From Eledone cirrhosa (taxonomy: Eukaryota): DNA of 64,000 nt. The position numbers and the translations under genes are program-made. The DNA lies in the NCBI GenBank assembly GCA_964016885.1, contig OZ024741.1:195982001-196046000 (forward strand), read 5' to 3'. Position 1 is the stretch's first letter. Each line of letters begins with the position of its first letter. Below are positions 7,901 through 64,000 of this stretch, in pieces. The notes below the pieces were generated by a model, which was not told where the DNA came from, did no database searches, and saw only the letters and a program-made list of their open reading frames with translations.

Positions 7901-8554
7901 CCCATAGCCTCCATGGATTTCGTCGTAGCCATCACAATGTTGTCCAACGTGACCATTTAGGTCGCCTGCAATAATTATATAGTCACTGTCGGATATTTGG
8001 GAGGTAGTGAGCATCAGTGTCTCATAGAATCTGTCTTTTATAGTGCCGGGCAGTCCGGATTGGGGTGCGTACGCAGATATTACTGTCACCGTAGTTCTAT
8101 TGAGGACAAGTCGTATTTTAATTATTCTGTCGTTCACTCTATTTACGTCTATTATCTTATCTGCCCACTTTTCTGCTACCATGATTCCTACTCCACCCAG
8201 CCCATCGTCGTTTCCCACCCAGAAAAGCTTATAACATCGTTTTTTACCCTCAATGAATCTAGCAGACCCACCCCTCCACCTGGTCTCTTGAATACAACAA
8301 ACATCGACCTCCTTACGTTCAAGCATTTCTACAACCTCGTTAGCGCGACCTTTTAGGGTGCCTACATTTATGGTACCAACTCTGAAGTTTTGGATTGCGT
8401 TTGGAGGGTGGGGGCGGTGGGGGGCGGGGGGAGATGGGGTTATGTTAGCCGTCCGCGGTCGAAACAAAGAGGAGTGCTCGCATTCTCGTCCACGAGGTGA
8501 ATTTGTCTTTATCTTTGGCATTTTCGCTGAGCGTCCAGATTTTTCTCTCTCTTC
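4963..8554 (-). mobile_element. Near full-length RTE-clade LINE copy B (APE endonuclease + RT + Cys/His finger), inactivated by one frameshift and one stop
   Basis: EN motifs GTINVGTL, CIQETRW, SAYAPQ and AGDLNGHVG. RT motifs QFGF, FVDLEKAFDRV, GVHQGSVLSP and LLYADD. The (GAT)n tail is at ~4963-4980, the frameshift at ~7800 and a TAA at 5941-5943. Confidence 0.93.
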
Positions 8555-8910
8555 CATCTCTAACAAAATACACCCCCGTCCCACCAGCCCCACCCCATCC
8601 ACACCGCCCCTTTCAATGTAAAGTTATGTTGGTGCCACAACATCCAGGCCGAAACAAATGAGATCGTGTAGTGTCACGTCAAAAAAACACACAGTTCACG
8701 CTGTAATGTGGCCGTGTAGGTAACACGGTAAAAACCTCCCAGCCCCACACTGTAAATGTGGTTGGTGTTAGGAAGGGCATCCAGCTGTAGAAAACCCGCC
8801 AGATAGTCCTATGCGAGCAAGGCAACCACTCTTGCCTCAAGTGGGAAAACCCCCGTCCAAACCCATGCAAGCGTGGAACACGGATGTTAAACGTTGATGA
8901 TGATGATGAT
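8555..8910 (+). mobile_element. RTE LINE copy A, right part (rest of 3'UTR and (GAT)n tail)
   Basis: Continues the sequence GTAGGCATC|TCTAACAAAATACAC that is seen uninterrupted at 50645-50670. Ends in GTTAAACGTTGATGATGAT. Confidence 0.88.
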
Positions 8911-20600: not shown

Positions 20601-21030
20601 TGTTACAATAAAGTACATTATTGATGTGACATGACCGTGATACTATAGTCTGTTACAATAAAGTACATTATTGATGTGACATGACAGTGTTATTATAGTC
20701 TGTAACAATAAAGTACATTACTGATGTGACATGACAGTGATACTGTAGTCTGTTACAATAAAGTACATTATTGATGTGACATGACAGTGTTATTATAGTC
20801 TGTTACAATAAAGTACATTATTGCTGTGATGTGACAGTGATACTGTAGTCTGTTACAATAAAGTACATTATTGATGTGACATGACAGTGATACTATAGTC
20901 TGTTACAGTAAAGTACATTATTGATGTGACATGACTGATACTGTAGTCTGTTACAATAAAGTACATTATTGATGTGACATGACAGTGACAATTGTTTGTT
21001 ACAATAAAGTATGTTATTGATGTGACATGA
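14685..21030. repeat. 50-bp intronic satellite, ~125 copies
   Basis: Unit TTACAATAAAGTACATTATTGATGTGACATGACAGTGATACTGTAGTCTG, highly homogeneous. Confidence 0.98.
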
Positions 21031-21169
21031 CATTGTGTTGTATTACTGTGACATTATAATTTATTCTGTTTTTGTGACACCTCAGTCAGTTGCCTCACTG
21101 TCACACTATAGTTAGTTGTCTTGCAGTTGTTTCTGAGAAACTGTAGCTGCTTGTCTCTGTAACATAGCA

Positions 21170-27393: not shown

Positions 27394-27439
27394 GTGAGTA
27401 TCAAATTAGTGAATACAGAAGATTAAACTGAAATGTAGT

Positions 27440-30400
27440 GTTGTATCGTTATACAAGGGGGAGTGTTGTGTTGTTGTACCAGGTGGGGTGTTGCTGTACA
27501 AGGTGGAGTATTGTGTTGTACAAGGTGGGGTGTTGTGTTATATTTGTTGTACAAGGTGGAGGGTTGTGTTGTTGTACAAGGTGGAGTGTTGTGTTGTTGT
27601 AGAAGGTGAGGTGTTGTGTTGTACAAGGTGGGGTGTTGTGTTGTTGTACAATGTGGAGTGTTGTCTTGTTGTACAAGGTGGAGTGTTGTGTTGTTGTACA
27701 AGGTGGAGTGTTGTGTTGTACAAGGTGAGGTGTTGTGTTGTACAAGGTGAGGTGTTGTGTTGTACAAGGTAGAGTGTTGTGTTGTTGTACAAGGTGGAGT
27801 GTTGTGTTGTACAAGGTGAGGTGTTGTGTTGTACAAGGTGAGGTGTTGTGTTGTACAAGGTAGAGTGTTGTGTTGTTGTACAAGGTAGAGTGTTGTGTTG
27901 TTGTACAAGGTGGAGTGTTGTGTTGTTGTAGAAGGTGAACTGTTGTGTTGTACAAGGTGGAGTGTTGTGTTGTTGTACAAGGTGGAGTGTTGTGTTGTTG
28001 TACCAGGTGGGGTGTTGTGTTGTTGTACAAGGTGGAGTGTTGTGTTGTTGTACAAGGTAGTGTGTTGTGTTGTACAAGGTAGTGTGTTGTGTTGTTGTAG
28101 AAGGTAGAGTGTTGTGTTGTACAAGGTGGAGTGTTGTGTTGTTGTACAAGGTGGAGTGTTGTGTTGTTGTACAAGGTAGTGTGTTGTGTTGTTGTACAAG
28201 GTGGAGTGTTGTGTTGTTGTACAAGGTGGAGTGTTGTGTTGTACAAGGTGAGGTGTTGTGTTGTACAAGGTGGAGTGTTGTGTTGTTGTAGAAGGTGGAG
28301 TGTTGTGTTGTTGTACAAGGTGGAGTGTTGTGTTGTACAAGGTGGAGTGTTGTGTTGTTGTACAAGGTGGAGTGTTGTGTTGTTGTACCAGGTGGGGTGT
28401 TGTGTTGTTGTACCAGGTGGGGTGTTGTGTTGTTGTACCAGGTGGGGTGTTGTGTTGTTGTAGAAGGTGGAGTGTTGTGTTGTTGTACAAGGTAGTGTTG
28501 TGGTGTTGTACAATGTGGAGTGTTGTGTTGTTGTACAAGGTGGAGTGTTGTGTTGTTGTACCAGGTGGGGTGTTGTGTTGTTGTACAAGGTGGAGTGTTG
28601 TGTTGTACAAGGTGAGGTGTTGTGTTGTTGTACAAGGTGGAGTGTTGTGTTGTTGTACAAGGTGAGGTGTTGTGTTGTACAAGGTGACGTGTTGTGTTGT
28701 TGTACAAGGTGAGGTGTTGTGTTGTACAAGGTGAAGTGTTGTGTTGTTGTACAAGGTGAGGTGTTGTGTTGTACAAGGTGAAGTGTTGTGTTGTTGTACA
28801 AGGTGAGGTGTTGTGTTGTTGTACAAGGTGGAGTGTTGTGTTGTTGTACAAGGTGAGGTGTTGTGTTGTACAAGGTGACGTGTTGTGTTGTACAAGGTGA
28901 GGTGTTGTGTTGTACAAGGTGGGGTGGAATGTTGTGTTGTTGTACAAGGTGGGGTGTTGTGTTGTTATACAAGGTGGAGTGTTGTGTTGTACAAGGTAGA
29001 GTGTTGTGTTGTTGTACAAGGTGGAGTGTTGTGTTGTTGTACAAGGTGGAGTGTTGTGTTGTTGTACAAGGTAGAGTGTTGTGTTGTTGTACAAGGTGGA
29101 GTGTTGTGTTGTTGTACAAGGTGGAGTGTTGTGTTGTTGTAGAAGGTGGAGTGTTGTGTTGTTGTACAAGGTAGAGTGTTGTGGTGTTGTACAAGGTGGA
29201 GTGTTGTGTTGTTGTACAAGGTGGAGTGTTGTGTTGTTGTACCAGGTGGGGTGTTGTGTTGTTGTACCAGGTGGGGTGTCGTGTTGTAGAAGGTGGAGTG
29301 TTGTGTTGTTGTACAAGGTAGAGTGTTGTGGTGTTGTACAATGTGGAGTGTTGTGTTGTTGTACAAGGTGGAGTGTTGTGTTGTTGTACCAGGTGGGGTG
29401 TTGTGTTGTTGTACAAGGTGGAGTGTTGTGTTGTACAAGGTGAGGTGTTGTGTTAATGTACAAGGTGGAGTGTTGTGTTGTACAATGTGGAGTGTTGTGT
29501 TGTTGTACAAGGTAGAGTGTTGTGTTGTTGTACAAGGTGGAGTGTTGTGTTGTTGTACAAGGTGGAGTGTTGTGGTGTTGTACAAGGTAGAGTGTTGTGG
29601 TGTTGTAGAAGGTGGAGTGTTGTATTGTTGTACAAGGTGGAGTGTTGTGTTGTTGTACAAGGTGGAGTGTTGTGTTGTACAAGGTAGAGTGTTGTGTTGT
29701 ACCAGGTGGAGTGTTGTGTTGTTGTAGAAGGTGAAGTGTTGTGTTGTTGTACAAGGTGAGGTGTTGTGTTGTACAAGGTGGAGTGTTGTGTTGTACAAGG
29801 TGGAATGTTGTGTTGTACAAGGTGGAGTGTTGTGTTGTTGTACAAGGTGGAGTGTTGTGTTGTACAAGGTGGAGTGTTGTGGTGTTGTACAAGGTGGAGT
29901 GTTGTGTTGTTGTACAAGGTGGAGTGTTGTGTTGTTGTGCAAGGTGAAGTGTTGTGTTGTACAAGGTAGAGTGTTGTGGTGTTGTACAAGGTGGAGTGTT
30001 CTGTTGTAGAAGGTGGAGTGTTGTGGTGTTGTACAAGGTGGAGTGTTGTGTTGTTGTACAAGGTTAGGGGTTGTGTTGTTGTACAAGGTGGAGTGTTGTG
30101 TTGTACAAGGTGGAGTGTTGTGTTGTTGTACAAGGTTAGGGGTTGTGTAGTTGTGCAAGGTGGAGTGTTGTGTTGTACAAGGTAGAGTGTTGTGGTGTTG
30201 TACAAGGTGGAGTGTTGTGGTGTTGTACAAGGTGGAGTGTTGTGTTGTTGTACAAGGTGGAGTGTTGTGTTGTTGTACAAGGTGGAGTGTTGTGTTGTAC
30301 AAGGTAGAGTGTTGTGTTGTTGTGTTGTACAAGGTGGAGTGTTGTATTGTACAAGGTGGAGTGTTGTGGTGTTGTACAAGGTGGAGTGTTGTGTTGTTGT

Positions 30401-30975
30401 ACAAGGTAGTGTGTTGTGTTGTTGTACAAGGTGGAGTGTTGTGTTGTTGTAGAAGGTGGAGTGTTGTGTTGTACAAGGTGGAGTGTTGTGTTGTTGTACA
30501 AGGTGGAGTGTTGTGTTGTACAAGGTAGAATGTTGTGTTGTACCAGGTGTTGTGTTGTTGTACAAGGTGGAGTGTTGTGTTGTTGTACAAGGTGAGGTGT
30601 TGTGTTGTACAAGGTAGAGTGTTGTGTTGTTGTAGAAGGTGGAGTGTTGTGTTGTACAAGGTGGAGTGTTGTGTTGTTGTAGAAGGTTAGGGGTTGTGTT
30701 GTTGTGCAAGGTGGAGTGTTGTGTTGTACAAGGTAGAGTGTTGTGGTGTTGTACAAGGTGGAGTGTTGTGGTGTTGTACAAGGTGGAGTGTTCTGTTGTA
30801 GAAGGTGGAGTGTTGTGTTGTTGTACAAGGTGGAGTGTTGTGTTGTACAAGGTAGAGTGTTGTGTTGTTATACCAGGTGGAGTGTTGTTGTGTTGTACAA
30901 GGTGGAGTGTTGTGGTGTTGTACAAGGTGGAGTGTTGTGTTGTTGTACAAGGTGAGGGGTTGTGTAGTGTTGTTG
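27440..30975. repeat. 22/25-bp GT-rich intronic minisatellite, ~3.5 kb
   Basis: Unit GTACAAGGTGGAGTGTTGTGTT(GTT). Confidence 0.97.
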
Positions 30976-31573: not shown

Positions 31574-31756
31574 GGTGATAAAACTTTGGAGTTAACGAAA
31601 AAGGAGTTTGAAGCATTAAACAGTCAACTGAAGGTGGACTTGCCAAACCTGTGTAAATTGTCAAAAGAAATTGTCTTGGACATCATTGTAAACTTCATAC
31701 TAGCAATGAATAACTATCGCAAACTCTGGTGTTTAGAACTGAAGAAATTCATTGAA
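31574..31756 (+). CDS. DNMBP: DNMBP-like exon (BAR C-terminal helix)
   Basis: 183 bp, phase 0/0. KKEFEALNSQLKVDLPNL matches the family motif YEALNxQLxxELP. Confidence 0.87.
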
Positions 31757-32741
31757 GTAAGGAGTTGCACTTTAAGGTTTCATTTTTTGTGATTTGAAAA
31801 AAAGATTCTCCTTTGTTGACATCATCATTACCATCATCACTGTTTTCTCTGCTAGCAAGGATTGGGTGTATTACCATAGACCGGTTAGTACTCAAGCAGA
31901 GCTTCGATCGTCTCAGATAAGTCTTTTGCACATGCATTCCCACACTCTATCAACTGTTCTGACAAGCTGGAGGGCTCCCATCTTGCTTACATATGACCCT
32001 GTACTCTACCAAGTGTATTTTGTCGTGACATCAATTCTAGGGAGGCTGTCATAGCTTGGCATGTCTAATGAGTCCTCCTGACCCTTTGGCAGGTTTTCTA
32101 TGGCTGGATGTCCTTCCTATTGCCAACAACTTTACAGAGTGTACTGGGTGCATTTTTCATGTAGTCCCACAGTCTCCGATCACTTTTATTTGTAGTGGTA
32201 GCTGTTGCCAATTCCATAGTAGATTTAAACTGCATCATACGTTGGACTATGCAGTGGCAATTAATTGAATGTTCATGAGAACCTTTCAAACTAAGCACCC
32301 AATATATCTTGCTTCTATTTTGTCTAGAGCCCCTGTACATTGCAATATTTAGTCAGCTTAGTTGAAGTTTGCATATAGTACAGGAGTATTCAACTAACAG
32401 GACCCACTGGAAGGAGTGTTTGAGGACTCTGCTCCCACAACCTTCTCAGGAATAAGTGAGCGAAGAAAAAGAAATATTCAACTGATTATTTAAGAGGAAA
32501 CTAATTAACCCAGACAGAGATATGTCACACTTCAGTTTGATCTATTACATACTGTCATGCTATTGCTGAGAAAGTGGATATCACAAACAGTATTATTATT
32601 GTCTCAGAATTGTCTTAATGATTGAACTGTCAACCGTTTCATGACTTTTATCTACAACCACATACATTTTCTTTTTTGAATTTGTCAAAATAGTGAAAAC
32701 TAGGTAGCACTACAATTTCATGATTGACTAATTGACATTCA

Positions 32742-33530
32742 AAGCTATAGTATTTGTTAGTTGACAGTCATAGCAATAGTATTTGTTAACAGTCATAGCT
32801 ATAGTATTTGTTGACAGTCATAGCTATAGTATTTGTTAGTTGACAGTCATAGCAATAGTATTTGTTGACAGTCATAGCTATAGTATTTGTTGACAGTCAT
32901 AGCTATAGTATTTGTTAGTTGACAGTCATAGCAATAGTATTTGTTGACAGTCATAGCTGTAGTATTTGTTGACAGTCATAGCTATAGTATTTGTTGACAG
33001 TCATAGCTATAGTATTTGTTAGTTGACAGTCATAGCAATAGTATTTGTTGACAGTCATAGCTGTAGTATTTGTTGACAGTCATAGCTATAGTATTTGTTG
33101 ACAGTCATAGCTATAGTATTTGTTGACAGTCATAGCTGTAGTATTTGTTGACAGTCATAGCTATAGTATTTGTTGACAGTCATAGCTATAGTATTTGTTA
33201 GTTGACAGTCATAGCAATAGTATTTGTTGACAGTCATAGCTGTAGTATTTGTTGACAGTCATAGCTATAGTATTTGTTGACAGTCATAGCTATAGTATTT
33301 GTTGACAGTCATAGCTATAGTATTTGTTGACAGTCATAGCTATAGTATTTGTTGACAGTCATAGCTATAGTATTTGTTGACAGTCATAGCTATAGTATTT
33401 GTTGACAGTCATAGCTGTAGTATTTGTTGACAGTCATAACTATAGTAATTTTTGAGTCATAGCTATAGTATTTGTTGACAGTCATAGCTATAGTATTTGT
33501 TGACAGTCACAACAATCATATTTGTTAATT
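32742..33530. repeat. 25-bp (variant 29-bp) intronic minisatellite
   Basis: Unit GACAGTCATAGCTATAGTATTTGTT, ~30 copies. Confidence 0.95.
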
Positions 33531-33579
33531 AGGTGTTGTAGTCTCCTTTTTATACCAAAACATGATGGAACAAGAGAAA

Positions 33580-34040
33580 ACTGTTGAATATCTCAATTGC
33601 CTAGCTAATACTGATATACTGGTGTACTCTTTTACCTGTTCCAGCCCACTGACTGAAGCCATGCTGGGACATTGTCATTGAATAATAGATAACATATTAG
33701 ACTACTAACTAGAATCAACTACAGCCATTTTTTTTTTTTTTCTAGATAGAGCAGCTTATTATAAATACTACAGCTAACTTATCTGTTGCAAATAATGTCA
33801 GATCTTGAAATACCACTTGTTTGTGGAAATAAGGTGGTTTAGAATTAAAAGAGTTAAAGAGAACAAAAATAATAAATACACTTAACTAAAAACAATTTTG
33901 AATTTGAAAGTTACACATTTTTTCCATCTCCAAGGCTTATATGTCTTAGACTTAGACTATTCTTCATAGTCAAACAACATTGATGCTTCTAACTTTTAGA
34001 TTCAATAACTTACTATTGTTTAACAGTTCTAAAAATTAAT
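33580..34040 (+). repeat. Interspersed repeat shared with 41868-42430 (MITE-like)
   Basis: A ~270-bp near-identical block from CTGTTGAATATCTCAATT to GGAAATAAGGTGGTTTAGAA, plus a TIR-like segment. Confidence 0.7.
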
Positions 34041-34113
34041 TATTTAATAAAAATAATAATATAACAGTTGAGTTTGTAAAATATGATTTAATTAATCAGA
34101 TCTTTATTTTCAG

Positions 34114-34239
34114 TTTATTGAAATGAAAGTTGAGAAGAATCAAAGAGAATCCAACAGCCAACATGTATTAAGACAGTTGTCTCAGATGCGATTTCACCAG
34201 TTCTTTGATGCAAACTACCCTGTTAAAATACTTGCTAAT
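34114..34239 (+). CDS. DNMBP: DNMBP-like exon (post-BAR)
   Basis: tttcag|TTT...AAT|gtaagt, 126 bp, phase 0/0, open; FIEMKVEKNQRESNSQHVLRQLSQMRFHQFFDANYPVKILAN. Confidence 0.68.
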
Positions 34240-34337
34240 GTAAGTTTATATTGGCTACTTTGTTTTTAGTTTGTTACCATTCAATGCTGGCCCTTATAAT
34301 GTACATTCATGTTTAGTACTTTGTTCATATTTTGTAA

Positions 34338-34543
34338 CTCTTTTGATACCAAAATTCCTTAAACCACTCGAGATTTATTATACAAAACTGCTCATTTTAA
34401 ATGTTTTATGATAATTTTATTTTTGGAATTATTTTTTAACTAATGTTTTAAATATCAGCTTACTAATGAAAAATGTGGTTATTTTCCCAAGTAATTAGAG
34501 TACATAGGCAGTGTATTTCATTAGAAATATAATAATGAAAGGG
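34338..34543 (-). mobile_element. piggyBac-like MITE (degenerate)
   Basis: TAA|CTCTTTTGATACC...AATGAAAGGG|TTAA; same termini as 45273-45587 in reverse orientation. Confidence 0.55.
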
Positions 34544-35055
34544 TTAATGAAAAGGAAAGGCTAAGTTAAGAAGATTGATGGGTACTAAAGGCATTTGCTA
34601 ACATATGCAGGAAATGTTGAATAAACGGATATGATCATGTGATAGGAATAAATGATACATGCTAAGTGAAAAAGTTTAATGTGTCAAGAGTATAGACTTG
34701 GGAGAAAGTCTGAAATTTTTACAGATAACGCAAAGAACCAACCCATAGATTAACTCAGAACATCCTGTATAAATTAAGCAGAAAATATCTAAAAATAAAA
34801 GGTTCATTAATTCAAATTTTTAGTGTCTTTACTAGTGAACATATTTGCAGAATTAGACTAAAGGATTTAATTTTTAATGTGACAGCCATAATGTAGTTTT
34901 GTATATGTGCTAATGTGGTTTCATGTGGTACAGGACGTGTAGGACAGCTCTATGAATTGTTATTTTATTTCTATAGGGACTGCCTAATCAGAATTTATGA
35001 GAAAGTTGGTTTGGCTTGAAATATAGTACAAATATAAAATCCTTAAACCAATAAT

Positions 35056-35790
35056 TTGATAGAGCTTGTTTCCTCTGAGCACTTTCTGCTTACTGTTCTT
35101 GTGCAACGCCACATTCTAAAACCTACATTCTTTGCTAACCTGCCTGAGATCCTGCTACATCTCTTGTGCACCTATAGTTTGAATTTGGGACAGAGGATGG
35201 AATTTCTACCCACCCCTTTCCTACACACTGAGCAGGGCCATTTCTCTGAAGGAATCAGGACCTTGTTTTCCTTTCTACTTACTAGAACTTTGGTCTTTGC
35301 CAAGTTGACTTTAAGACCTTTTGATTCCAAGTTATGCTTCCAGGTCAGGAAATTATTTTCTAGTTCTGCCATAGATTCTGCTATGAGAGTTAGATCATCA
35401 GCATGCTGGAGTTCCCAAGGACATTATGTGTTAAATTCTTCTGTTATAGACTGGAGGACAATAATAAACAGAAGAGTGCTAAGTACACAATGCTGGTAGT
35501 CTCCAACTTGCATGCTAAACTCCTCACTATTGTCATTACAAATTTTAACCTTGCTGACTGTTCCTCTGTACATGATTTATACTACACTCACAAGCCACTG
35601 ATCTATCCCACTTTCCTAAGTACCCATCAGATTACAGAACGGCAAACTCTGTCAAGTTTTCTCCAGGTCAACAATTGCCAAGTGGAGGGGTTTACTTTTA
35701 GCTAGGTACTTCTGCAGTTGCCTCACACGGAAGAGGGCATCCGTGTTACTTTTACCTGGCACAAATCCAAACTACATCTCATCTAGGTTT
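35056..35790 (-). mobile_element. Degenerate RTE RT fragment
   Basis: Homologous to the RT and Cys finger of 5941-7812 (ESKGLKVNLAKTKVL...WPCSVCRKGVGRNSILCPK). Confidence 0.85.
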
Positions 35791-36236
35791 GTTTTATTAT
35801 TATGAAATGCAGTGGATTATTATGAAGAGGGTGGTGGATTGGCAGTTTCGGTAGAGCATCAATAACATTTTTTGCAGCATAGAGTTACAGCCCTTTATTT
35901 TCTGAGTTCAAATCATGCTGAGGTTAGCTTTGCCTTTCAAGTCAATAAAATAAAGTACCAGTAACTCACTGTTGGTTAATTTAATTGACTTTCCACTTCC
36001 CCAAAATTGTTGGCCTTCCAGCTAAATCGGAAACCATTATTTTATGAAATGAAGTGTAGCATTTTGACATTTTAAAATTATTTACAGTTCTTTAATATAT
36101 TTTAATAACTTTAATTTTCTAATATATTTTTCATTTCTATCTCTTATTCTTTCTTTTGATGAAGGACTAAGGGCTGAAACGTTAAGATTCTTTTCCACTG
36201 TATCAAGCATTCAACTAATATATATCATCATTATAC

Positions 36237-38749
36237 TTTAGAAGAAGTTATTTAGTAGATGTTTGTGTTGAGAATGTGTATATTTGTGTATTGTATCACG
36301 GAAGTCACCATTGAAGATGTTAAAAGCAATGTTGTGGAAAATAGCATCTTACGACTTTATAATTGTTCATATATAATTTATTTACAGATTACAAAGGTTA
36401 GAAGAATGTCTCTTGAGAGGATAGTTAATGTTATCAATAAAAAGGTTATAACGGTTTAAAGAGGTACGGTCAACTGGCTGAGGTGTTAACCAGTCCCGTA
36501 GTGATATTTGTTGCTACATATTGTCTATGCTTGAAGGAACGAAAGCAAGAGATGTTTACCTTCATGGTGTCAAGCTGCAAGAGAGAGAGAGAGTTTCGAA
36601 TTGCTGCGGGAATACCCCTCTGGGCGGAAGTCGAGATCCATTCTCCTACGCTGGTAGCGATTGGCTGAACTGAGCCAAACAACGTACGGAGAATGTAGGT
36701 CACTACAATACCCCCTATCTAGTCTGCAAGACGATATATAAAATTGAATCAGCAGGAAAAATGCTGAAAGAGAACACATCAATGAAAAAATTGAACAAAA
36801 GAATGCATGCAAGAAGAAAAATGAAGCGCTAAGGGCCGTGTTGAGCCGCTGTGTCAAATGACAAGCTGTTTTGCTATTTATGCGTGACCACCCGGGATCT
36901 AACAGAAAACGGATAAAGTCTGACATGGGCAAAATTGCTGTTCTTGCATTAAATGTTAGCTGTTATGGTAAGTGTTGTACCAGAGCTGTTATGGTAGTTT
37001 ACCAGTAGCTGTTGTCAATGATGGTGCTGTTCATGCTTTACCAGAGCTGTATAGCTGTTATGGTAAGTGTTATACCAGAGCTGTTATGGTAAATATTATA
37101 CCAGAGCTGTGTAGCTGGAGCTGTTATGGTAAATGTTGTAGCAGAGCTGGCAAGAAGATGATGGGTAGGCGAGAAATTGTCGGCCTCCCAGATGATTTGC
37201 CGGAAGTGCTGGGCAGCCAGGAAAAAATGGCTAGTTGCTTTGAAAAGAAAAAAAAGCAAGTTGAATCTGTAGGAGGGTAGTAATTGAAGCGGTAATCCAT
37301 AATTCTGGCGAATCCATAGGAGAAATGGTGGAAATGCTGACGGGTCCAGTTCCATTTGTTGTTTTCCCAGTGAGTCGGGTAAAGTAACAAGATTGAGGTT
37401 GTTATGCTATAGGACGATGAGTGTGCAACGAGATGCGAAGCTGTTTGAATCCAGCTGCAATTAGCAGTTCTCGTGTTGCGGTGCCTGTTTGAATCCAGGC
37501 GAATTAAGCTGTATGTGTCAACAGCATGTTTTGGTACCAGGTGAAAAGGGATCCCGCAGAATATTACGATGCTTGAAGATCCTATACTATAGCCAACAAC
37601 ATGTTGGTGTGTGACAAAGAAATGTGTGTGTATATGCAGGCATGTAATACAGCAAAGAAAATGTATGCGTGCAGTCATATATACAATGATAGAAAAAAAA
37701 ATGAATGTTCATATAATACTGTTTAAAAAAAATAAATGTCCAAACATTGCCTGTAAAAAGAGAAAGAAAGAATTGTTTTTTTAACAAAAAGTTCACTTTT
37801 TTCTTTTCTTTGAAATTTCTTTGGGATAAGAATGTTATCGTTCTTGCTAGGAAGCTAGTAGAGTTGTTGTTGTTGCTGCTATCGAAACGAAGTCACAGTA
37901 AATTTTCAGTAGAATTGAAGTCGAGCATTGAAGAGCTTAGAGTCACCAATATGCAAGTCACGTCTGACGCCATAGTGTGGTGAGAAAGGCTGTGAGTTCG
38001 AATCATGTCGGACGTTAGAAACATCGATGAATCGTGAAGTTTTGTACAGCAGTGAAGATTTGCAAGCGTCGAATTTACCATTATGTGGTGAGAAGGCTGC
38101 TGTTGTTTTAATTCTCAAGTCGCCGTTTGTAGCAAGACAGTTAGAAGTTGGAGCGGTTATAATTAGAGACGATAGAATAGGTGAAGCATAGAAGTAAACA
38201 ATATGAGGTGTGGTGGTTTGCGTCGGTAAGGCTATAAAGCTGCCACATAGTTATTCCGTTGTTTATGGTTAGATTTAGAAGTTATTTAGTAGATGTTTGT
38301 GGTGAGAATGTGTGTACTGTATCACGGAAGTCACCATTGAAGATGTTAAAAGCAATGTTGTGGAAAATAGCATCTTACGATTTTATAATTGTTTATATAT
38401 AATTTATTTACAGATTACAAAGGTTAGAAGAATGTCTCTTGAGAGGATAGTTAATGTTATCAATAAAAAGGTTATAAAGGTTTAAAGAGGTACGGTCAAC
38501 TGGCTGAGGCATTAGCCAGTCCTGTAGTGATATTTGTTGCTACATATTGTCTATGCTTGAAGGAACGAAAGCAAGAGATGTTTACCTTCATGGTGCCAAG
38601 CTGCAAGAGAGAGTTTCGAATCGCTGCGGGAATCCCCCCTCTGGGCGGAAGTCGAGATACATTCTCCTACGCTGGTAGCAATTGGCTGAACTGAGCCAAA
38701 TAACGTATGGAGAATGCATCCATGAGCCCTCGGAATGTAGGTCACTACA
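36237..38749 (-). mobile_element. Non-autonomous LTR retrotransposon with two ~470-bp LTRs (36237-36707 and 38274-38749)
   Basis: Long direct repeats starting TGTAGTG on the minus strand. A polypurine tract AGATAGGGGG sits just inside the left (3') LTR. TSD ATAC at 36233-36236 and 38750-38753. The ~1.57-kb interior has no intact gag/pol ORF. Confidence 0.85.
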
Positions 38750-38832
38750 ATACTATATTATTCTCTTGTGTTGTTTTTCCTTGTTGACTTTTCGCATACA
38801 TATTTATGTATGTAAATGGATCTATTTTTCAG

Positions 38833-38974
38833 ATATTACTTAATGTACCTGTGTTAAGTTCCAAAACAAATAGATACAGTTCTCTATGTAGCCAATATTC
38901 TTATACAACAAAACCAGGTGGCTCTAACATTGGAAGGACTTTTCATTCAGAATCTGATGCTTTACCACTATCAA
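38833..38974 (+). CDS. DNMBP: DNMBP-like exon (low-complexity linker); alternative in-frame donor at 38992
   Basis: tttttcag|ATA...; open frame ILLNVPVLSSKTNRYSSL...SDALPLS. Both donors (gtgagt and gtatgt) are phase 1, matching the next exon. Confidence 0.6.
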
Positions 38975-39009
38975 GTGAGTTAAAATCTATTTGTATGTAA
39001 AGTAGTAGT

Positions 39010-39480
39010 ATTAGTGCCATCTTGGAGAGTACCCAGTCCACCCTGTAAGGTGGTCGTGCTAGTGCCCAAACAAAAAGCCCCCAGTCCACTCTGGAAAGTG
39101 GTTGTACTGGTGCCACGACGAAAGCATCCAGTTAAGCCTGGAAAGTGGTTGTACTGGTTCTATGACCAAAAGCCACCAGTCCACCCAGTAAGGTGGTTGT
39201 ACTAGTTCCACAACAAAAAGCACCCAGCCCACCCTGTAAGGTGGTTGTGCTAGTTCCACAAAAAAAGCACCCAGCCCACCCTGTAAGGTGGTTGTGCTAG
39301 TTCCACAAAAAAAGCACCCAGCCCACCCTGTAAGGTGGTTGTACTAGTTCCACAAAAAAGCACCCAGCCCACCCTGTAAGGTGGTTATGCTAGTTCCACA
39401 AAAATATCACTCAGTCCACCCTGTATGGTGGTAGTACTGGTGCTATAACAAAAAGCACGCAGTCAACCCTGTTAGTGCTG
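39010..39480. repeat. ~47-bp tandem repeat, ~10 copies, derived from a LINE/SINE 3'UTR motif
   Basis: Unit AAAAAGCACCCAGCCCACCCTGTAAGGTGGTTGTGCTAGTTCCAC. The same motif occurs singly at ~11795, 46170, 48340 and 51245. Confidence 0.85.
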
Positions 39481-40055
39481 TTGCCATGTCAAAAATCTTT
39501 TAAGTACATCAGGCTTATTAAAGTTTGATAATCTATCTCCATCGAAATATTATTCTAAGTGTTAGCATTCCTGCAATAATTAATTTTCTTTAGACATTAA
39601 TAAACATTATACATTACAAGAAATCCCATATGTTATAAAATAAATAGGATGGGTTGGGGTCTCAATATGTAAACTAAACAACTAATTTTGGTTTTAAAAA
39701 AATCAAGAGAGACAACCTGGAAAAATGACCGATTTCCACCACCCTTATTATTTGGGACCCGAGAGTATGTTGTTATCCAGACTTCTCTTGTATGATTGAA
39801 GACTTTTGTAATGACCACCTGTTTCTACAGTAGCTTGTATAGTGGCATTCTTTCATCCTTACGGGGTCGATAAAATAAAGTACCAGCAATACACTGGGGT
39901 AATTGCTGGCCTTGTGCCAAAAGTAGAAACAATTATGTTATGCTCACGTATGCAGCCAAGTAAATGTCAAATTTGAATAATAACATTAAATAAAATGTTT
40001 ATATTTATTCTTAATAAAAATACATTAACTGATTTGTTTCATTAATGTTAACCAG

Positions 40056-40099
40056 GTAATAGTGATTTGAAGCAGTCTTTGATGATTGAAGATGATGGC
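40056..40099 (+). CDS. DNMBP: DNMBP-like micro-exon (44 bp)
   Basis: cag|GT AAT AGT...GGC|gtaagt, phase 1 to phase 0. It bridges the frame between the 38833 exon and the SH3 exon. Confidence 0.6.
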
Positions 40100-40139
40100 G
40101 TAAGTAAATAATCTTCTTTTTCTCCTCCTCCTCCTCCTC

Positions 40140-41210
40140 CTCCTCCTTCCCAGTTATTCTTGGGAGAGTTGTTGGGAGCAGAGACCTCAGACACACTTTA
40201 CAGAGGGTCCTGTCAAAAACAACTGTCTTCACTTGTGCCCATAAAATTTCTCCAGCGATTCTTTTCTGAGATATTCTAACCAAATATCTTTAGTATCTGA
40301 GCTATGATCTCTTGATTCAGAGGGACTCCTTGATCTCCAAACTATGCACCCTAACATTAGTTTAAAGACTTTTTGGAGGAACCCCATTTCAGCCGCTTGT
40401 ATTCATAATCATATTCTTTTGATCATTACCTATGATACATGACTGTAGGTAAGGGTAGGCACGAACAACGAATTAAAGGTAGCAAGTTTGGTTTTTACAC
40501 CTACCTCCATTCATCTGATGAATGAGTGCTGAAATTGATGCATTACTGCACCAGCTCCTGCAAATCTTGCATTTAATTCAGCTTCATGCCTTCCATCACT
40601 CGTGAAAACAATCCAATACACTTTAACATCTCCACCTGCTTCAATGGAATTTCACACATGCAAAATGAATTAGGGAGGCTTCTTTGTGTCCACGTCTTTG
40701 TACCACTCATTTTTGTTCCCTCCATGCCGTACTTGGCAGCAAACCTGTCAAGCACATGTTGGAGATCATCTTCTGATGTGTTAGGTAATATCATGTCATC
40801 TGCAAATTCCAACTGACTGATCCTACATCTGCCACTCTCAAAACTACTTCCAACCCGGCTACACATGTCTATCCTGTTCATGAAGATTATGAATAGGAGA
40901 GGTGACTGTACACACCCTTGGTAGTGTCCAGCACCCATATTGAATGGTTTTGATTTACCACCATTTATCGGAACACAAATACTAGGGTATTCATACAGAG
41001 ACATCAGGGCAAAAAGACGCTGTCCAGCAATCCAATACTCCTGCAGGATCTTCCACAGCAGATCCTGTGAAACTTCGTCATATAAATTTCCGAGATATGT
41101 AAATTTCTCGAACCTACCACAGTGTATTTACTCAGCTGTGCTGCACAGCCCTGGATTCACCATAGCTGACCAGATACTCACACTGTGGCAGGTTTTCGAG
41201 AAATGGCACT
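40140..41210 (-). mobile_element. Degenerate RTE-like LINE RT fragment
   Basis: QGCVQSPLLFIIFMNRI...LEFADDM; same family as 24520-25370. Confidence 0.8.
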
Positions 41211-41394
41211 GTATGTTAAAATTTTATATTTTTGTAATGATTTAAATTTTAGAAATGTTTTGCTTCTCATTAAAAAATAGCATGATTAAATTTTTATAAC
41301 ACTACCATTATGCTATAAATTTAGTCTATTTATATTAATACTAATTGCTGTAAATAATATATTAATATATTTTAACCTTTTCCTCTCTATTTAG

Positions 41395-41634
41395 TTCTAC
41401 TTTGCTAAGATGCCTTATTATGGTCGAGTTAACCAGCCAGAAGTATCCCTCTATGATGGACAGTTTGTTACTGTCACTGCAAAGAAAGATGGAAATGGAA
41501 ATAGTGAGTGGTGGGAAGTTAACACAGGTGATACTGTTGGATATTGTCCAGCTATCTGCTTAGAAAAAGCAACAGATTTCATGGAAACTGGAGAAATACC
41601 TTTTTCAGAGTTTAACATTATGGATACTTCCTAA
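41395..41634 (+). CDS. DNMBP: DNMBP-like terminal exon: C-terminal SH3 domain and stop
   Basis: FYFAKMPYYGRVNQPEVSLYDGQFVTVTAKKDGNGNSEWWEVNTGDTVGYCPAICLEK. The D.GN.EWW signature is typical of the last Tuba/ARHGEF37/38 SH3. Confidence 0.88.
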   Translation, partial: FYFAKMPYYGRVNQPEVSLYDGQFVTVTAKKDGNGNSEWWEVNTGDTVGYCPAICLEKATDFMETGEIPFSEFNIMDTS

Positions 41635-57152: not shown

Positions 57153-57158
57153 AATTAA

Positions 57159-58097
57159 GGTAGATAGAAGTAAAAATCGAGGTTATTTTAATTTTGTTTC
57201 AGTATCACCATCTGAAACAAGTGAATAGCCAATATTCCATAGCTTACATATATTTAAATATATTCAACAATATTTTCTTATGAATAAATATAAATATTTC
57301 AGATGAAAATATAGAATCAAAACGAAAGTACCTACTAAGTATGTCATTCGGTTACAAATTACGCCAATGACCAGAATAATAATGTGCTCATTTGTGTTGG
57401 GACTAACACATTTCGAAATTTATAATATCTTATGTTTCTTATTCTTTTGGTCATTTGATGAACATATAAGAGAATACTAGGTTGTATGAACACAACAAGA
57501 CACTAGGTTGTGTGCATAAAGTTTAATTAACAAGTTGAAGTTATGTAGTATAGAATTGTTGACATGTCAAGAGTAGATGAAAGAATGAAGTAAAGTTATT
57601 TGTTACCGTTTTGAAGTTAGCTCGCAAGAGACCATGTTAGGGTTGCCAGAGAGTAGAGCCTGGGCGAACGCGCCTGGCCGAAGGGCCAGGCTAGAGTGAG
57701 ATCGCCTTGAGATATCCCTTTTATAGGGTCCCAGGACGGAAGTGACAAAAAGGGTTCTGCCACCCCAACGGAAAGTAACTCCAGCTACTTCCTGTCTAGA
57801 GAGCGGTGATGTGATTGTCATAACAAGGGAGGCAACTCTTGCTACATTATCCCCCGCCAGATTTTTAAAATATAAAAATCGAATGAACCATGTATGAAGT
57901 AAGAAGGCGAGCATGTAACACTAAAGTCCAGGCATGAAAATTACGCTTACGTTTCATGTGAAATATTTATGTAAGCAAGAAAATATTGTTGAATATATTT
58001 AAATATATGTAAGCTATGGAATATTGGCTATTCACTTGTTTCAGATGGTGATACTGAAACACAATTAAAATAACCTCGATTTTTACTTCTATCTACC
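57159..58097. mobile_element. Kolobok-like non-autonomous DNA transposon (~120-bp TIRs, TTAA TSD) carrying a solo-LTR-like insert
   Basis: TTAA|GGTAGATAGAAG...CTTCTATCTACC|TTAA, with near-perfect inverted arms at 57159-57279 and 57977-58097. Confidence 0.72.
57464..57846 (-). mobile_element. Second copy of the solo-LTR-like repeat
   Basis: Matches 23591-23948. The left boundary and TSD could not be resolved. Confidence 0.6.
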
Positions 58098-58138
58098 TTA
58101 AAATAGCAGTAGTTTTAAGAATCCGTAATAGATTGATG

Positions 58139-60055
58139 GGCACTACAACGCTTTTAGCTGTCAGTCGAAGCAGCCGATGAAAGCAGGCGAAGGCGACGTC
58201 ATTCGTCAAACATCGTTTATTTCCGTATTACTACCACGCGTAAGTGGAGTTAATTAAATGAAATTTTTTTTTTTATTAAAGCATATAGATGTAAGTGGAG
58301 TTACTTAAATGAAATTATTTTATTTTATTTTTTATTAAAGCATATAGATGTAAGTGGAGTTACTTAAATGAAATTATTTTATTTTATTTTTTATTAAAGC
58401 ATATAGATGTAAGTGGAGTTACTTAAATGAAATTTTTTTTTTTTTTTAATTAAAGCATATAGATGTAAGTGGAGTTACTTAAATGAAATTATTTTATTTT
58501 TTTTTAATTAAAGCATATAGATGTAAGTGGAGTTACTTAAATGAAAATATAGGTGGCCCTTAAAAGGGCCAAATTAGAAAACAAATTTAAGTTAATTAGA
58601 AAACAAGTCATGATCTGGTTATCAAATAAATTGGGGCATACGTCAAGACGGGCGGTCAGGAAAGTGAAAGTAATTTTTGACACTGAATTTGTTTGTTTGT
58701 TTTTTTTACAACAGGTCTCAATAATGAAAGTTACGATACACACGCAATTGTATGGATTTCTTAATATATATATATGTGTGGGTGTGTATATGTGTGTATA
58801 TATATGTGTGTCTGTATGTATATATATATGTGTGTTTGTATATATATATGTGTTTGTGTCATCATCATCGTTTAACGTCTATCTTCCACGCAAGCATGGG
58901 TTTCTGACCCAAATCGCTTATCATTCTCTGTCCTTCTTATGACCCGACCTTAATTTCTTTGGGGACAGAGAGTTTGGCGAGATGTACAAACACATATATA
59001 CACACAAACATATATATACGTCTAAACCCATGCTTGCGTGGAAGATAGACGTTAAACGATGATGATGACACAAACACATATATATATACAAACACACATA
59101 TATATACACACATATACACACCCACACATATATATAAAGAAATCCATACAATTGCATGTGTATCGTAACTTTCACTATTGAGACTTGTTGTAAAAAAAAA
59201 AAAAAAAAAGAACTCAGTGTCAAAAATTACTTTTACTTTCCTGACCGCCGGTCTTGACGTATGCCATAAATTGGATTTAATCATTTATATTTTCATAGTC
59301 ATGGTTATCAATGTAGAAAACAAGTCATTTTCACCAACAGTGGAGTTAACTTAAATGAAAATATAGGTGGCCCTTAAAAGGGCCAAATTGTTAATGGAAT
59401 TAACCATCGCGATCTTTCCATCGTTACCGCTACTACAGCAGATACCATCAATCTCCATGGGAACTGTCTCTTGTCTCCATGTGGACTGTCTCCATGCTTT
59501 TTGAATAAGGTTGGTGAAAAAAATTTGTTTTCTAAACATTTCTTCATAAAGGGTTGGTGAAAAAAATTTGATAACCATAAATTTGTTTTCTAATTTGGCC
59601 CTTTTAAGGGCCACCTATATTTTCATTTAAGTTAACTCCACTGTTGGTGAAAATGACTTGTTTTCTACACTGATAACCATGACTATGAAAATATAGTTCA
59701 TGGTATTAGCTGTCAGAAGTAACTCCACTGTTGGTGAAAATGACTTGTTTTCTACATTGATAACCATGACTATGAAAATATAAATGATTAAATCCAATTT
59801 ATTTGATAACGATGACTTGTTTTCTAATTAACTTAAATTTGTTTTCTAATTTGGCCCTTTTAAGGGCCACCTATATTTTCATTTAAGTAACTTCACTTAC
59901 ATCGATATGCTTTAATAAAAAAAAAAAAAAAAAAAAAAACGCGTGAAAAAAAAAAAATTCCATTTAAGTAACTTACGCGTGGTAGTAATACGGAAATAAA
60001 CGATGTTTTGCTTTCATCGGCTGCTTCGACTGACAGCTAATAGCGTTGTAGTGCC
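58139..60055. mobile_element. Foldback-type element with nested inverted repeats and subterminal ~60-bp tandem repeats
   Basis: Termini GGCACTACAACGC/GCGTTGTAGTGCC. Inverted pairs at ~58510-58633/59793-59915, ~58637-58900/59027-59265 and ~59265-59390/59593-59800. Five tandem units lie at 58240-58545. Confidence 0.7.
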
Positions 60056-61175: not shown

Positions 61176-61177
<2 letters not shown>

Positions 61178-62074
61178 GAAGATGAGAGAATACTTGATCA
61201 AAGAGAGATTGAATGTTTCATGGTTTTACAAGAAAAAATAAATAAGGAGTAGTGAGAGCAAGGGAAAAATAAAAATAATAAAGAATAGGGAGAGATAACA
61301 AATGTAAGTGTAGATGGAGGAAGTAAGAGTAAGGAGGAAATAAAAGGAACAGCAACACACTTGAAAAAAGGTTGAGGAAGAATAATAATTGTTTCTACTT
61401 TTGGCACAAGGCCAGCAAATACCCAGTACATTACTGGTACTTTATTTTATCGACCCCGTAAGGATGAAAGGCAAAGTTAATCTCGAACTAGAGTTGAGGA
61501 AAGGCACATACGCACGCGCACACATACACACAATATAAGACGACATGTAAGTCTTATAAAGATTATAAGATGAACCCAATTTTAGCTGACCCTTTCTTGC
61601 AATAATATATATATATATATATATATACTACTGCTAAAATTGGGTTCATCTTATAATCTTTATAAGACTTACATGTCGTCTTATATTGTGTGTATGTGTG
61701 CGCGTGCGTATGTGCCTTTCCTCAAACAATTATTATTCTTCCTCAACTCCAGTTCAAATACCGCCGAGGTTAACTTTGCCTTTCATCCTTACGGGGTCGA
61801 TAAAATAAAGTACCAGTAATGTACTGGGTATTTGCTGGCCTTGTGCCAAAAGTAGAAACAATTATTATTCTTCCTCAACCTTTTTTCAAGTGTGTTGCTG
61901 TTCCTTTTATTTCCTCCTTACTCTTACTTCCTCCATCTACACTTACCTTTGTTATCTCTCCCTATTCTTTATTATTTTTATTTTTCCCTTGCTCTCACTA
62001 CTCCTTATTTATTTTTTCTTGTAAAACCATGAAACATTCAATCTCTCTTTAATCAAGTATTCTCTCATCTTCAT
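61176..62074. repeat. ~900-bp near-perfect inverted duplication centred on a (TA)n tract
   Basis: Outer arms ~61176-61485/61764-62074 (the two mirror ORF translations are identical) and inner arms 61494-61586/61633-61725. Confidence 0.93.
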
Positions 62075-62408
62075 CACTGCATACAATTTATACCCTTGCT
62101 TGAAATTAAAATAGAAGTTTTCATGTCATAAGATTTATCACCCTACTTAACTACTAGTGACAGGTAGCATATAAAACTGCAGACTGTAACTACACATGTA
62201 CTGAGGTCAATTCAATTGATTGTATCTTTATATTTCTTCTTCACAAATTGGTGGCATCTGTATAAGTTAGAAATTAATATCGATTTGTGACGATGTCAAT
62301 ATGATCTACCGATTACAGAGATGATCCAAGGGAAATAACTTGCAATACTCTCGCACATAACAAATCATATCAACACAGTAGAGCCTTGTTTCAACAACGT
62401 GTTCAAAT

Positions 62409-63665
62409 ATGCAGTGCAGATTTTTCCATCCCATATCGTTGTTTAGGTCAATCCAAACATTTTCTCCGCCCAGTTTCACTTCTCTCCGAAATCCTGTAAC
62501 TGTGACTACTCTACAACTAGTGAATTACCAGTCGACGGCTACCGAAAAGAAACTTTTTACTCCAGGTCCTCTAAACACTACATCGACAGTGCGTGAGGCA
62601 ATGTTAAAAGATCTAGGTTCGCGAGATATTCAGTTTATCCAGTGTGTGAAAAATATTCGGCAGAAAATTCTGGACATCGCAGAAGTTAGCAATCTTGAGT
62701 ATACGTCGATACCAGTTCAAGGTAGTGGAACATACGCTGTCGAAGCCGTCCTTCAATCAACAGTTCCTCGGGGCGATGGTAATGTTCTTATTTTGGAAAA
62801 CGGTGCCTATGGTAAACGTATTGCAAAAATCTGTGAAATTGCAGGCATTTCAAAACACGTATTGAGTTTCCCTGAAAACTCTGCTGTAGATGTTAATGTT
62901 GTTGAAGATATTTTGAAAAATGATTCTACATTTACTCATGTTGCTATAGTTCACTGTGAGACAAGTTCTGGAGTTTTCAACCCTGTCGTGGATATTGGTA
63001 AGATTCTCCAAAAATATTTAAACAATTTTACTTATTTTGTGGATGCAATGAGTAGTTTTGGAGCAGTTCCGCTTGATTTCGCTGCCGGCAACATCGACTT
63101 CATGGTTAGTTCAGCGAATAAATGTTTACAAGGTGTTCCTGGATTCTCTTACGTGGTTGCGAGGACTAGCAAGCTACTAGAATGTCGTGGTTATTCCCGC
63201 TGTCTTACCCTGGATCTTTATGATCAATATGAGAACCTGGAAAAAACAGGTCAGTTTCGGTTTACCCCTCCAACACATACGATGTTAGCATTTCAGCAAG
63301 CTATCGTGGAATATGAGCAAGAAGGGAGCTTAAAGGGAAGGTCTGATAGATATATGGAAAATCGATCTATTTTGGGAAAAGGTATGAAAACACTTGGTTT
63401 CAAAGAGTTACTGGCTGATCCAAACCAACCTAGTTATATTATAACTTCATTTTACTTTCCCAGCGATTCACATTTTGATTTTACTACGTTCTACAACAAA
63501 TTAAACGATTTAGATTTTGTTATATACCCTGGCAAAGTACTGGAAGCAGGCTGCTTTCGAATTGGAACAATAGGTGAAGTTTACCCATCAGATATTAAGG
63601 GTCTATTAAAAGCTATCGAAAGAGTTTGCCTCGAAATGAATATGACACTCCCACTGAACGGTTAA
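62409..63665 (+). CDS. phnW: 2-aminoethylphosphonate-pyruvate transaminase (AEPT, class V PLP enzyme), intronless, with a putative mitochondrial presequence
   Basis: 418-aa ATG-to-TAA ORF. Motifs: LFTPGPLNT, DLGSRD, QGSGTYAVEA, NGAYGKRI, VHCETSSG, VDAMSSFGA, PLP-lysine SSANKCLQGVPG, GQFRFTPPTH and IYPGKV...FRIGTIG. Confidence 0.95.
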   Translation: MQCRFFHPISLFRSIQTFSPPSFTSLRNPVTVTTLQLVNYQSTATEKKLFTPGPLNTTSTVREAMLKDLGSRDIQFIQCVKNIRQKILDIAEVSNLEYTSIPVQGSGTYAVEAVLQSTVPRGDGNVLILENGAYGKRIAKICEIAGISKHVLSFPENSAVDVNVVEDILKNDSTFTHVAIVHCETSSGVFNPVVDIGKILQKYLNNFTYFVDAMSSFGAVPLDFAAGNIDFMVSSANKCLQGVPGFSYVVARTSKLLECRGYSRCLTLDLYDQYENLEKTGQFRFTPPTHTMLAFQQAIVEYEQEGSLKGRSDRYMENRSILGKGMKTLGFKELLADPNQPSYIITSFYFPSDSHFDFTTFYNKLNDLDFVIYPGKVLEAGCFRIGTIGEVYPSDIKGLLKAIERVCLEMNMTLPLNG

Positions 63666-64000
63666 TGGAAGGCTTAAAAACTTTTTAATTAATATATATT
63701 TAAATATTTTCATATCTAATTTTACAAAATTGTTACTGGGGTAATTATACGATATATATATATATAATATATTAAATAAATAAAAACATGCAAAAAATGG
63801 AAGAAAAATAAGGGGGAAACATTCGGTTGCAATAAAATTATATTGAAATATTGAAATACATGTTTTTTTCTGTTACTGTCGCATTGATATGTTTGTTTTA
63901 TGTACATAATACACATCTGCACGTTTCATAAATGATACAGCTTCTTATTTCCCTACTCCAGGTCTCATACACCATACTCGACTGTGATTTATAGGGACTA

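What the first reader, a model, noticed from the sequence alone, without database searches (positions are those of the whole stretch)
62409..63665. Intact intronless phosphonate transaminase (PhnW/AEPT) with a mitochondrial-type leader in an animal genome
Seen: a 1257-bp uninterrupted CDS with all class V / PhnW motifs, embedded among host SINEs and microsatellites, while the neighbouring gene has 44-240-bp exons. The first 45 residues are rich in R/S/T/F and contain no D or E. Known: AEPT interconverts phosphonoacetaldehyde and 2-AEP (ciliatine); molluscs make ceramide-aminoethylphosphonate via PEP mutase, phosphonopyruvate decarboxylase and AEPT; bacteria use PhnW with PhnX or PhnY/PhnA for catabolism. 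Inference: this is a retrocopy or a horizontally acquired gene, and it may place a step of C-P compound synthesis or breakdown in mitochondria.
Basis: partly seen in the sequence, partly recalled or inferred. Interest (0 to 1): 0.75.

Follow-up and report, generated by a model that had tools for sequence, protein, structure and literature searches.

The report
Intronless octopus phosphonate gene beside partner
This octopus-type genome has one intact, intronless gene for the enzyme that interconverts phosphonoacetaldehyde and the phosphonate ciliatine; it is most likely an inherited animal gene rather than a bacterial import, likely a reverse-transcribed copy that replaced the original, and it sits 13 kb from the gene for the preceding step of the same pathway, with both enzymes predicted to work in mitochondria.

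Summary
In detail: a 418-aa single-exon AEP transaminase (PhnW/AEPT) at 62409-63665 (+) with an acid-free 45-residue leader. Recent horizontal transfer is rejected. The protein sits with Octopus and Argonauta orthologues inside a eukaryote clade (AU p=0.0009 for the window alone, 0.004 for octopods; transfer to the coleoid ancestor is not formally rejected, p=0.077). It is the only copy found in the genome, so it is no extra retrocopy. The likely history is retrogene replacement, but evidence for introns in other molluscs is indirect. The leader is not special: most animal AEPTs and phosphonopyruvate decarboxylases (Ppd) have one. The new point lies outside the window: the only Ppd gene found starts 13,104 bp after the AEPT stop, same strand. 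The two genes share a scaffold in Argonauta and a chromosome in O. bimaculoides and a chiton, but lie on different chromosomes in 14 of 14 bivalves and 3 of 3 cnidarians. PepM and PhnX are elsewhere in the genome. Best reading: a predicted mitochondrial enzyme that makes 2-AEP for phosphonolipids, forming a derived two-gene pathway pair. Localisation and co-regulation are untested.

The parts
62409..63665 (+). Single-exon CDS of 2-aminoethylphosphonate aminotransferase (AEPT/PhnW), 418 aa
   Evidence: only copy found in the genome
62409..62546 (+). N-terminal leader, residues 1-46, predicted mitochondrial presequence. The next in-frame Met is residue 65, inside the core, so there is no leaderless start.
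   Evidence: composition heuristics only, no TargetP or MitoFates
62385..63848 (+). Stretch covered by one 1463-nt contig of run X4. This run's contigs follow Ppd exons only, so it is likely a transcriptome; its kind is not on record.
63771..63836 (+). Candidate poly(A) signals: ATTAAA at 63771, AATAAA at 63779 and 63831
61176..62074 (.). Inverted duplication ending 335 bp upstream of the ATG: 310-nt arms, 99% complementary, with an inner 93-nt pair; contains SINE pieces
   Evidence: second copy of the arm end also seen
31574..41634 (+). 3' exons of the upstream neighbour, a multi-exon gene with a weak BAR hit and a terminal SH3 domain (DNMBP/ARHGEF37-38-like; that name is recalled)
63666..64000 (+). 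In-window start of the 13,104-bp interval between the AEPT stop and the phosphonopyruvate decarboxylase (Ppd) ATG. The Ppd gene itself lies beyond the window's end, at G000:C2:196058770-196142554 (+), with about 12 coding exons and a basic, acid-poor leader.
   Evidence: the interval gave only reverse-transcriptase and PHD fragments and one sub-threshold DUF hit in Pfam

Best explanation
This is the genome's only detected AEP transaminase gene, an intact single-exon member of the animal AEPT lineage, likely a retrocopy that replaced its intron-containing parent in cephalopods, lying 13 kb upstream of the Ppd gene and predicted to make 2-aminoethylphosphonate inside mitochondria. Mechanism: PepM (on contig C28) turns PEP into phosphonopyruvate. 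Ppd, the next gene downstream, decarboxylates it to phosphonoacetaldehyde. AEPT, a PLP enzyme, transaminates that to 2-AEP, which would leave the mitochondrion and become the head group of ceramide aminoethylphosphonate. The reaction is reversible, and PhnX (contig C3) could break down phosphonoacetaldehyde. Shown: ORF, family membership, no second copy found, tree position, Ppd adjacency, presence of PepM and PhnX. Inferred: retroposition (about 0.6), mitochondrial import (about 0.8), net synthesis rather than breakdown (about 0.7). Any benefit from the linkage is untested.
For: Family cut-offs passed. D212, K238 and R384 align with D168, K194 and R340 of an enterobacterial PhnW (the roles of these residues are recalled). 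Trees place it with O. sinensis (100/97), Argonauta (100/99) and two squid-like sequences (100/100), inside a eukaryote clade split from bacteria at 100/99 (similar). AU rejects window+bacteria (p=0.0009) and octopods+bacteria (p=0.004). GC3 is 0.32, against 0.25 in six Ppd exons. No second copy, with exon-wise positive controls. Introns elsewhere: coral AEPT has 4 (PMC3640398 Table 2); Ostrea isoforms break at about residues 92 and 369, a Mytilus isoform just before the core, and a Solemya model has a 26-aa insertion near 97. A squid-like full-length protein is called on a 52.9-kb ENA contig, which hints at loss before the octopus-squid split. Leader: 63 of 76 leader-bearing homologues are acid-poor and basic, against 5% of 2,512 core windows; all 20 hand-picked Ppd homologues have net charge of +2 or more. 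Linkage; same contig in O. bimaculoides and Argonauta; different contigs in 14 of 14 bivalves and 3 of 3 cnidarians. CAEP is present in O. vulgaris muscle (PMC12335516). PepM and Ppd are predicted in rhizarian mitochondrion-related organelles (10.64898/2026.09.23.753574).
Against: No mollusc orthologue's exon map was read directly; intron evidence is isoform-based. A sponge-like full-length AEPT is also called on a 201-kb ENA contig (P0087), so lack of introns may recur or be old. No poly(A) tail or target-site duplication was identified. AU does not reject cephalopods+bacteria (p=0.077), and molluscs are unresolved in that tree. In Argonauta the two accessions differ by 24, so adjacency is shown only in this genome. 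A chiton also has both genes on one chromosome (415 accessions apart). Coleoids have 505 new microsyntenies whose genes do not tend to be co-expressed (PMC9023564), so the pair may be a by-product of genome reshuffling. 58 of the 88 metagenome and plasmid loci (L034-L121) carry PhnX beside the gene, and only 5 carry Ppd, so the closest bacterial relatives are mostly catabolic. 29 of 105 homologues lack a long leader. The PepM N-terminus was not found.
Confidence: 0.6

Rival explanations
1. The gene lost its introns in place, or was intronless from early on, and came next to Ppd through the general coleoid chromosome reshuffling. The adjacency has no function.
For: Hundreds of new coleoid microsyntenies exist and do not tend to be co-expressed. 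A chiton has both genes on one chromosome. A likely intronless sponge-like orthologue exists. No retro-insertion scars were found.
Against: Losing every intron, including the likely one between leader and core, is more simply explained by one mRNA copy. By my estimate, a given gene has about a 1 in 3,000 chance of neighbouring one of three pathway partners, assuming about 20,000 genes.
Confidence: 0.27
2. The enzyme mainly breaks down dietary 2-AEP: AEPT makes phosphonoacetaldehyde and PhnX releases phosphate and acetaldehyde.
For: A two-exon PhnX is in the genome. The nearest bacterial relatives mostly sit beside PhnX. The animal eats CAEP-rich prey (general knowledge).
Against: PepM and Ppd are present and Ppd is the neighbour. 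AEPT and Ppd share predicted presequences, while the first detected PhnX exon gives only a short N-terminus (an upstream exon is not excluded). No PhnA was found, and PhnY hits are only weak matches far below the cut-off.
Confidence: 0.2
3. A bacterial phnW entered the coleoid ancestor by horizontal transfer and replaced the native gene.
For: The gene is intronless. AU does not reject cephalopods+bacteria (p=0.077).
Against: The held tree is 37 log-likelihood units worse. Core identity is 63% to a clam and at most about 54% to bacterial loci. Both free trees nest it among animals. It carries the leader typical of animal orthologues.
Confidence: 0.04

Closest known systems
Bacterial 2-aminoethylphosphonate:pyruvate transaminase PhnW (PDB 1M32, 9KK8; TIGR02326, NF010006)
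   Same: Same family, over the cut-offs; best structure matches at E about 1e-105; catalytic Asp, Lys and Arg positions kept.
   Different: About 50% identity, a 46-aa leader, eukaryote clade, no operon.
Animal AEPT of the PepM-Ppd-AEPT pathway (Acropora digitifera, PMC3640398; annotated orthologues such as O. sinensis XP_029643078.1)
   Same: Orthologue, 86% identical to O. sinensis; all three pathway genes are in this genome.
   Different: Coral AEPT has 4 introns and its three genes are on separate scaffolds. Here AEPT is single-exon and next to Ppd.
Retrogene replacement, e.g. amphioxus SYCP1 (PMC5803294, abstract and outline read)
   Same: Single coding exon, no parent copy found, multi-exon orthologues elsewhere.
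   Different: Here the new neighbour is the preceding enzyme of the same pathway. Movement away from the ancestral locus and promoter sharing are not shown.
Novel coleoid microsyntenies (PMC9023564, passages read)
   Same: Genes on different bivalve chromosomes are neighbours in a coleoid.
   Different: Those blocks are three or more genes, generally not co-expressed. This is a pair of consecutive enzymes; name searches of that paper's 7 supplementary files found neither gene, though lists by gene ID would be missed.
Predicted mitochondrial aminophosphonate metabolism in rhizarians (bioRxiv 10.64898/2026.09.23.753574, passages read; it cites B. motovehiculus)
   Same: PepM and Ppd are predicted to be targeted to the organelle.
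   Different: Protist organelles, and AEPT is not mentioned in the passages seen. My searches found no such statement for animals.

Membership tests
PhnW/AEPT aminotransferase | Score above curated family HMM cut-offs | tested here: met
   three of three AEPT models passed; AGXT-like and other class V models scored far lower
PhnW/AEPT aminotransferase | PLP Schiff-base Lys, PLP-binding Asp and substrate-binding Arg | tested here: met
   K238, D212 and R384 match positions 194, 168 and 340. The roles are recalled; the source paper was not held.
PhnW/AEPT aminotransferase | 2-AEP:pyruvate transaminase activity | not testable with these tools
   needs an enzyme assay
Horizontally acquired bacterial gene | Nests among bacteria, apart from animal orthologues | tested here: not met
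   AU rejects at window and octopod level; coleoid level p=0.077.
Retrogene replacement | Single coding exon | tested here: met
Retrogene replacement | Parental multi-exon copy absent | tested here: met
   searches gave one match each; positive controls. A very decayed remnant could be missed.
Retrogene replacement | Outgroup orthologues are multi-exon | tested here: inconclusive
   Coral has 4 introns; mollusc evidence is from isoforms; a sponge-like ENA record looks intronless.
Retrogene replacement | Sits at a new locus, away from ancestral neighbours | tested here: inconclusive
   Unlinked from Ppd in 14 of 14 bivalves, but which gene moved is not shown.
Retrogene replacement | Poly(A) remnant or target-site duplication | tested here: inconclusive
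   None identified by eye; not expected for an old event.
Mitochondrial matrix protein | Basic, acid-poor, amphipathic N-terminal presequence | tested here: met
   R3, no D/E in the first 30 residues, hydrophobic moment 0.49, no strongly hydrophobic stretch. Heuristic only.
Mitochondrial matrix protein | Observed import and cleavage | not testable with these tools
   needs GFP fusion or proteomics
Eukaryotic metabolic gene cluster | Non-homologous genes for consecutive steps are adjacent | tested here: met
   Two genes, 13,104 bp apart; the third step, PepM, is unlinked.
Eukaryotic metabolic gene cluster | Co-regulation and conserved adjacency | tested here: inconclusive
   Same contig in two other octopods; both genes present in run X4; contigs cannot give expression levels.

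The most novel reading that the evidence does not exclude
A retrogene replacement in the coleoid ancestor put AEPT next to Ppd and built a selected, co-regulated, operon-like pair for the two consecutive steps that make and remove reactive phosphonoacetaldehyde, in a pathway that animals run inside mitochondria.
Probability: 0.2. Interest if true: 0.68.

Novelty: new variant of a known kind. Interest (0 to 1): 0.4.

Why it matters
The enzyme is known and already annotated in octopus genomes, so the gene alone is ordinary. Two things are worth a look. First, pathway gene pairs are uncommon in animals, and this one looks newly assembled, which makes it a clean test of whether cephalopod genome reshuffling ever produced functional neighbours. 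Second, leaders on both AEPT and Ppd across animals predict that animal phosphonate synthesis runs at least partly in mitochondria. A 2023 review calls eukaryotic phosphonate biology cryptic (PMC10574752), and this prediction is simple to test.

Tried and rejected
Recent HGT: rejected. Contamination: rejected. Extra retrocopy beside a living parent: not found. AEPT-Ppd fusion or AEPT as a Ppd exon: AEPT has its own stop and poly(A) signals, and Ppd has its own ATG and leader. The longer C-terminus of the O. bimaculoides model matched only a distant stretch weakly (E=0.002, minus strand) and was treated as a model artefact. RNA search: no RNA holder listed; X4 is judged RNA-like only from exon-limited contigs. 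The genome-contig scan gave 1 weak locus from 74 candidates. The metagenome scan kept 80 of 571 loci, none with introns visible. The PepM leader exon was not found; only the exon that starts the core was located. The large tree did not finish its careful search, so the quick tree was used. dN/dS was not computed, as no orthologue DNA was available. No structure or complex prediction was run. Papers: 9 searches showed none describing cephalopod AEPT structure, the AEPT-Ppd linkage or mitochondrial AEPT in animals. Supplement searches were empty (one scanned PDF unread; ID-only lists would be missed). Subscription papers are not covered. Earlier scan notes: nothing relevant.

Full report
Observation. 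The frame 62409-63665 (+) translates without a stop to 418 aa. It exceeds the cut-offs of three AEPT models, and its best solved relatives are PhnW structures 9KK8 and 1M32. D212, K238 and R384 align with positions 168, 194 and 340 of an enterobacterial PhnW (the roles of these residues are recalled). Residues 1-45 have no D or E. Contigs of three DNA-like runs of one sample join the gene to flanking host sequence.

Origin. In the homologue search (best 120 of 7,991 listed), every hit with an organism name is an animal, led by O. sinensis (86%) and Argonauta (78%). Two more are eukprot entries, and three unnamed hits look bacterial (one was placed in the tree). A 79-row quick tree and a 34-row careful tree both place the protein with Octopus, then Argonauta, then two unnamed squid-like sequences, inside a eukaryote clade separated from bacteria (100/99 in the careful tree). 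Rows were hand-picked from the hits: 22 eukaryotes and 12 bacterial or metagenomic sequences in the careful tree. AU tests reject window+bacteria (p=0.0009) and octopods+bacteria (p=0.004) and do not reject mollusc monophyly (p=0.28). Cephalopods+bacteria is not rejected (p=0.077, 37 log units worse). Vertical descent is therefore the supported reading, with a small residual chance of an old transfer.

Copy number and introns. Protein, DNA, family and clam-protein searches of the genome each returned this locus alone. The family search did find PepM (5 exon hits, C28), Ppd (6, C2) and PhnX (2 strong exon hits on C3, plus one weak hit on C17 that I read as another HAD hydrolase), so a living intron-containing parent would probably have shown. 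PhnA was not found, and PhnY gave only weak hits far below the cut-off. Evidence for introns in orthologues is a published count of 4 in Acropora (PMC3640398, parts 1-2 of 4 read; that model lists no Pfam domain and may be partial). Mollusc models add breakpoints near residues 46, 92-97 and 369. A full-length squid-like protein is called on a 52.9-kb ENA contig. Other ENA records on large contigs are exon-sized pieces of 60-65 aa, so this hints that squid are also intronless. The same logic makes a sponge-like record on a 201-kb contig intronless, which weakens the idea that loss is unique to cephalopods.

Leader. Of 121 sequences, I dropped 3 bacterial-like ones and 13 without a start Met or the core motif. 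Of the other 105 (this protein included), 76 have a leader of at least 24 aa. Of those 76, 63 are acid-poor and basic in their first 30 residues, against 5% of 2,512 core windows. All 20 hand-picked Ppd homologues have net charge of +2 or more there, and 19 have at most one acidic residue. The Ppd leader in this genome is similar. In 31 of 76 AEPTs a second Met lies just before the core, which could give a leaderless form; here the next Met is residue 65, so only the leader-bearing form seems possible. These are composition heuristics, not a targeting predictor. A precedent exists in rhizarian mitochondrion-related organelles (10.64898/2026.09.23.753574, two passages read).

Neighbour. Mapping O. 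bimaculoides and Argonauta Ppd proteins onto the window plus 128 kb of downstream DNA gave about 12 coding exons at G000:C2:196058770-196142554 (positions 76770-160554 if window numbering is continued), same strand. The ATG is 13,104 bp after the AEPT stop. The 61 frames of at least 60 aa in the interval gave only reverse-transcriptase and PHD fragments and one sub-threshold DUF hit; short exons of another gene could be missed. Using contig lengths and accessions as a proxy, both genes share a contig in O. bimaculoides (80.9 Mb), Argonauta (4.9 Mb, accessions 24 apart) and the chiton Liolophura (82.5 Mb, 415 apart). They lie on different contigs in 14 of 14 chromosome-scale bivalves and 3 of 3 cnidarians (Hydra may mix assemblies). 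Left out as uninformative: eight scaffold-level species (all on different scaffolds), Periplaneta (different contigs, likely two assemblies) and O. sinensis (Ppd in pieces on unplaced scaffolds). These species are related, not independent, and strict adjacency is shown only here.

Expression. No run is on record as RNA. Run X4 has contigs that cover only the Ppd exons, with the rest of each contig lying elsewhere, as spliced transcripts do. It also holds one contig over 62385-63848. I infer that both genes are transcribed. This is one study and gives no levels.

How it works. Established chemistry (PMC3266647 passages; PMC3640398) is PEP to phosphonopyruvate to phosphonoacetaldehyde to 2-AEP. 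CAEP is found in O. vulgaris muscle (PMC12335516 passages). I commit to a mitochondrial, mainly synthetic role, with breakdown through PhnX as the rival. For history I favour an mRNA-derived copy, leader included, that replaced the parent and lies beside Ppd. The main rival is intron loss in place plus coleoid reshuffling; new coleoid neighbourhoods are common and mostly not co-expressed (PMC9023564 passages).

What I saw of other papers: PMC5803294, abstract and outline; PMC10574752, PMC3499245 and PMC6522055, passages; PMC13652810, supplement search only. PMC3499245 treats rotifer AEPT and Ppd as foreign genes; one search shows rotifer Ppd proteins among the animal hits, but I did not test that claim.

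Verdict. A real, intact and already annotated enzyme, with recent HGT rejected. The intronless state and the Ppd neighbour make it a new variant of a known kind. Interest 0.4.

Noticed in passing
window 61176-62074 and 57155-60055: Several nested, near-perfect inverted duplications: 310-nt arms at 99% just upstream of AEPT, 125-nt arms at 57155/57977, and a larger fold-back set at 58139-60055. They could be recent rearrangements, foldback elements or assembly effects.
   Followed up: partly
window 5944-8623 (-) and L002:4080-5480 (-): LINE-like elements: endonuclease, reverse transcriptase and PHD-finger matches in the first, reverse transcriptase and PHD-finger matches in the second.
   Followed up: no
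window 14745-21032, 21171-23481, 27437-30965: Long satellite arrays with 50-, 31- and 25-bp units, apparently within or near the BAR-SH3 gene; they explain the long minus-strand ORFs at 27.4-31 kb.
   Followed up: no
window 2-1921 (+): A 639-aa frame, open at the window edge, with no Pfam match.
   Followed up: no
proteins: Ppd with basic leaders occurs widely in animals, including insects, a myriapod, rotifers and annelids, and in Capsaspora. [quoted passage not shown]
   Followed up: partly
G000:C3:64775661-64782617 (-): A two-exon phosphonoacetaldehyde hydrolase (PhnX), suggesting the animal can cleave C-P bonds itself.
   Followed up: partly
protein P0008 (O. vulgaris model): The model lacks residues 311-351 and has a foreign C-terminus, probably an annotation or assembly error.
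   Followed up: no
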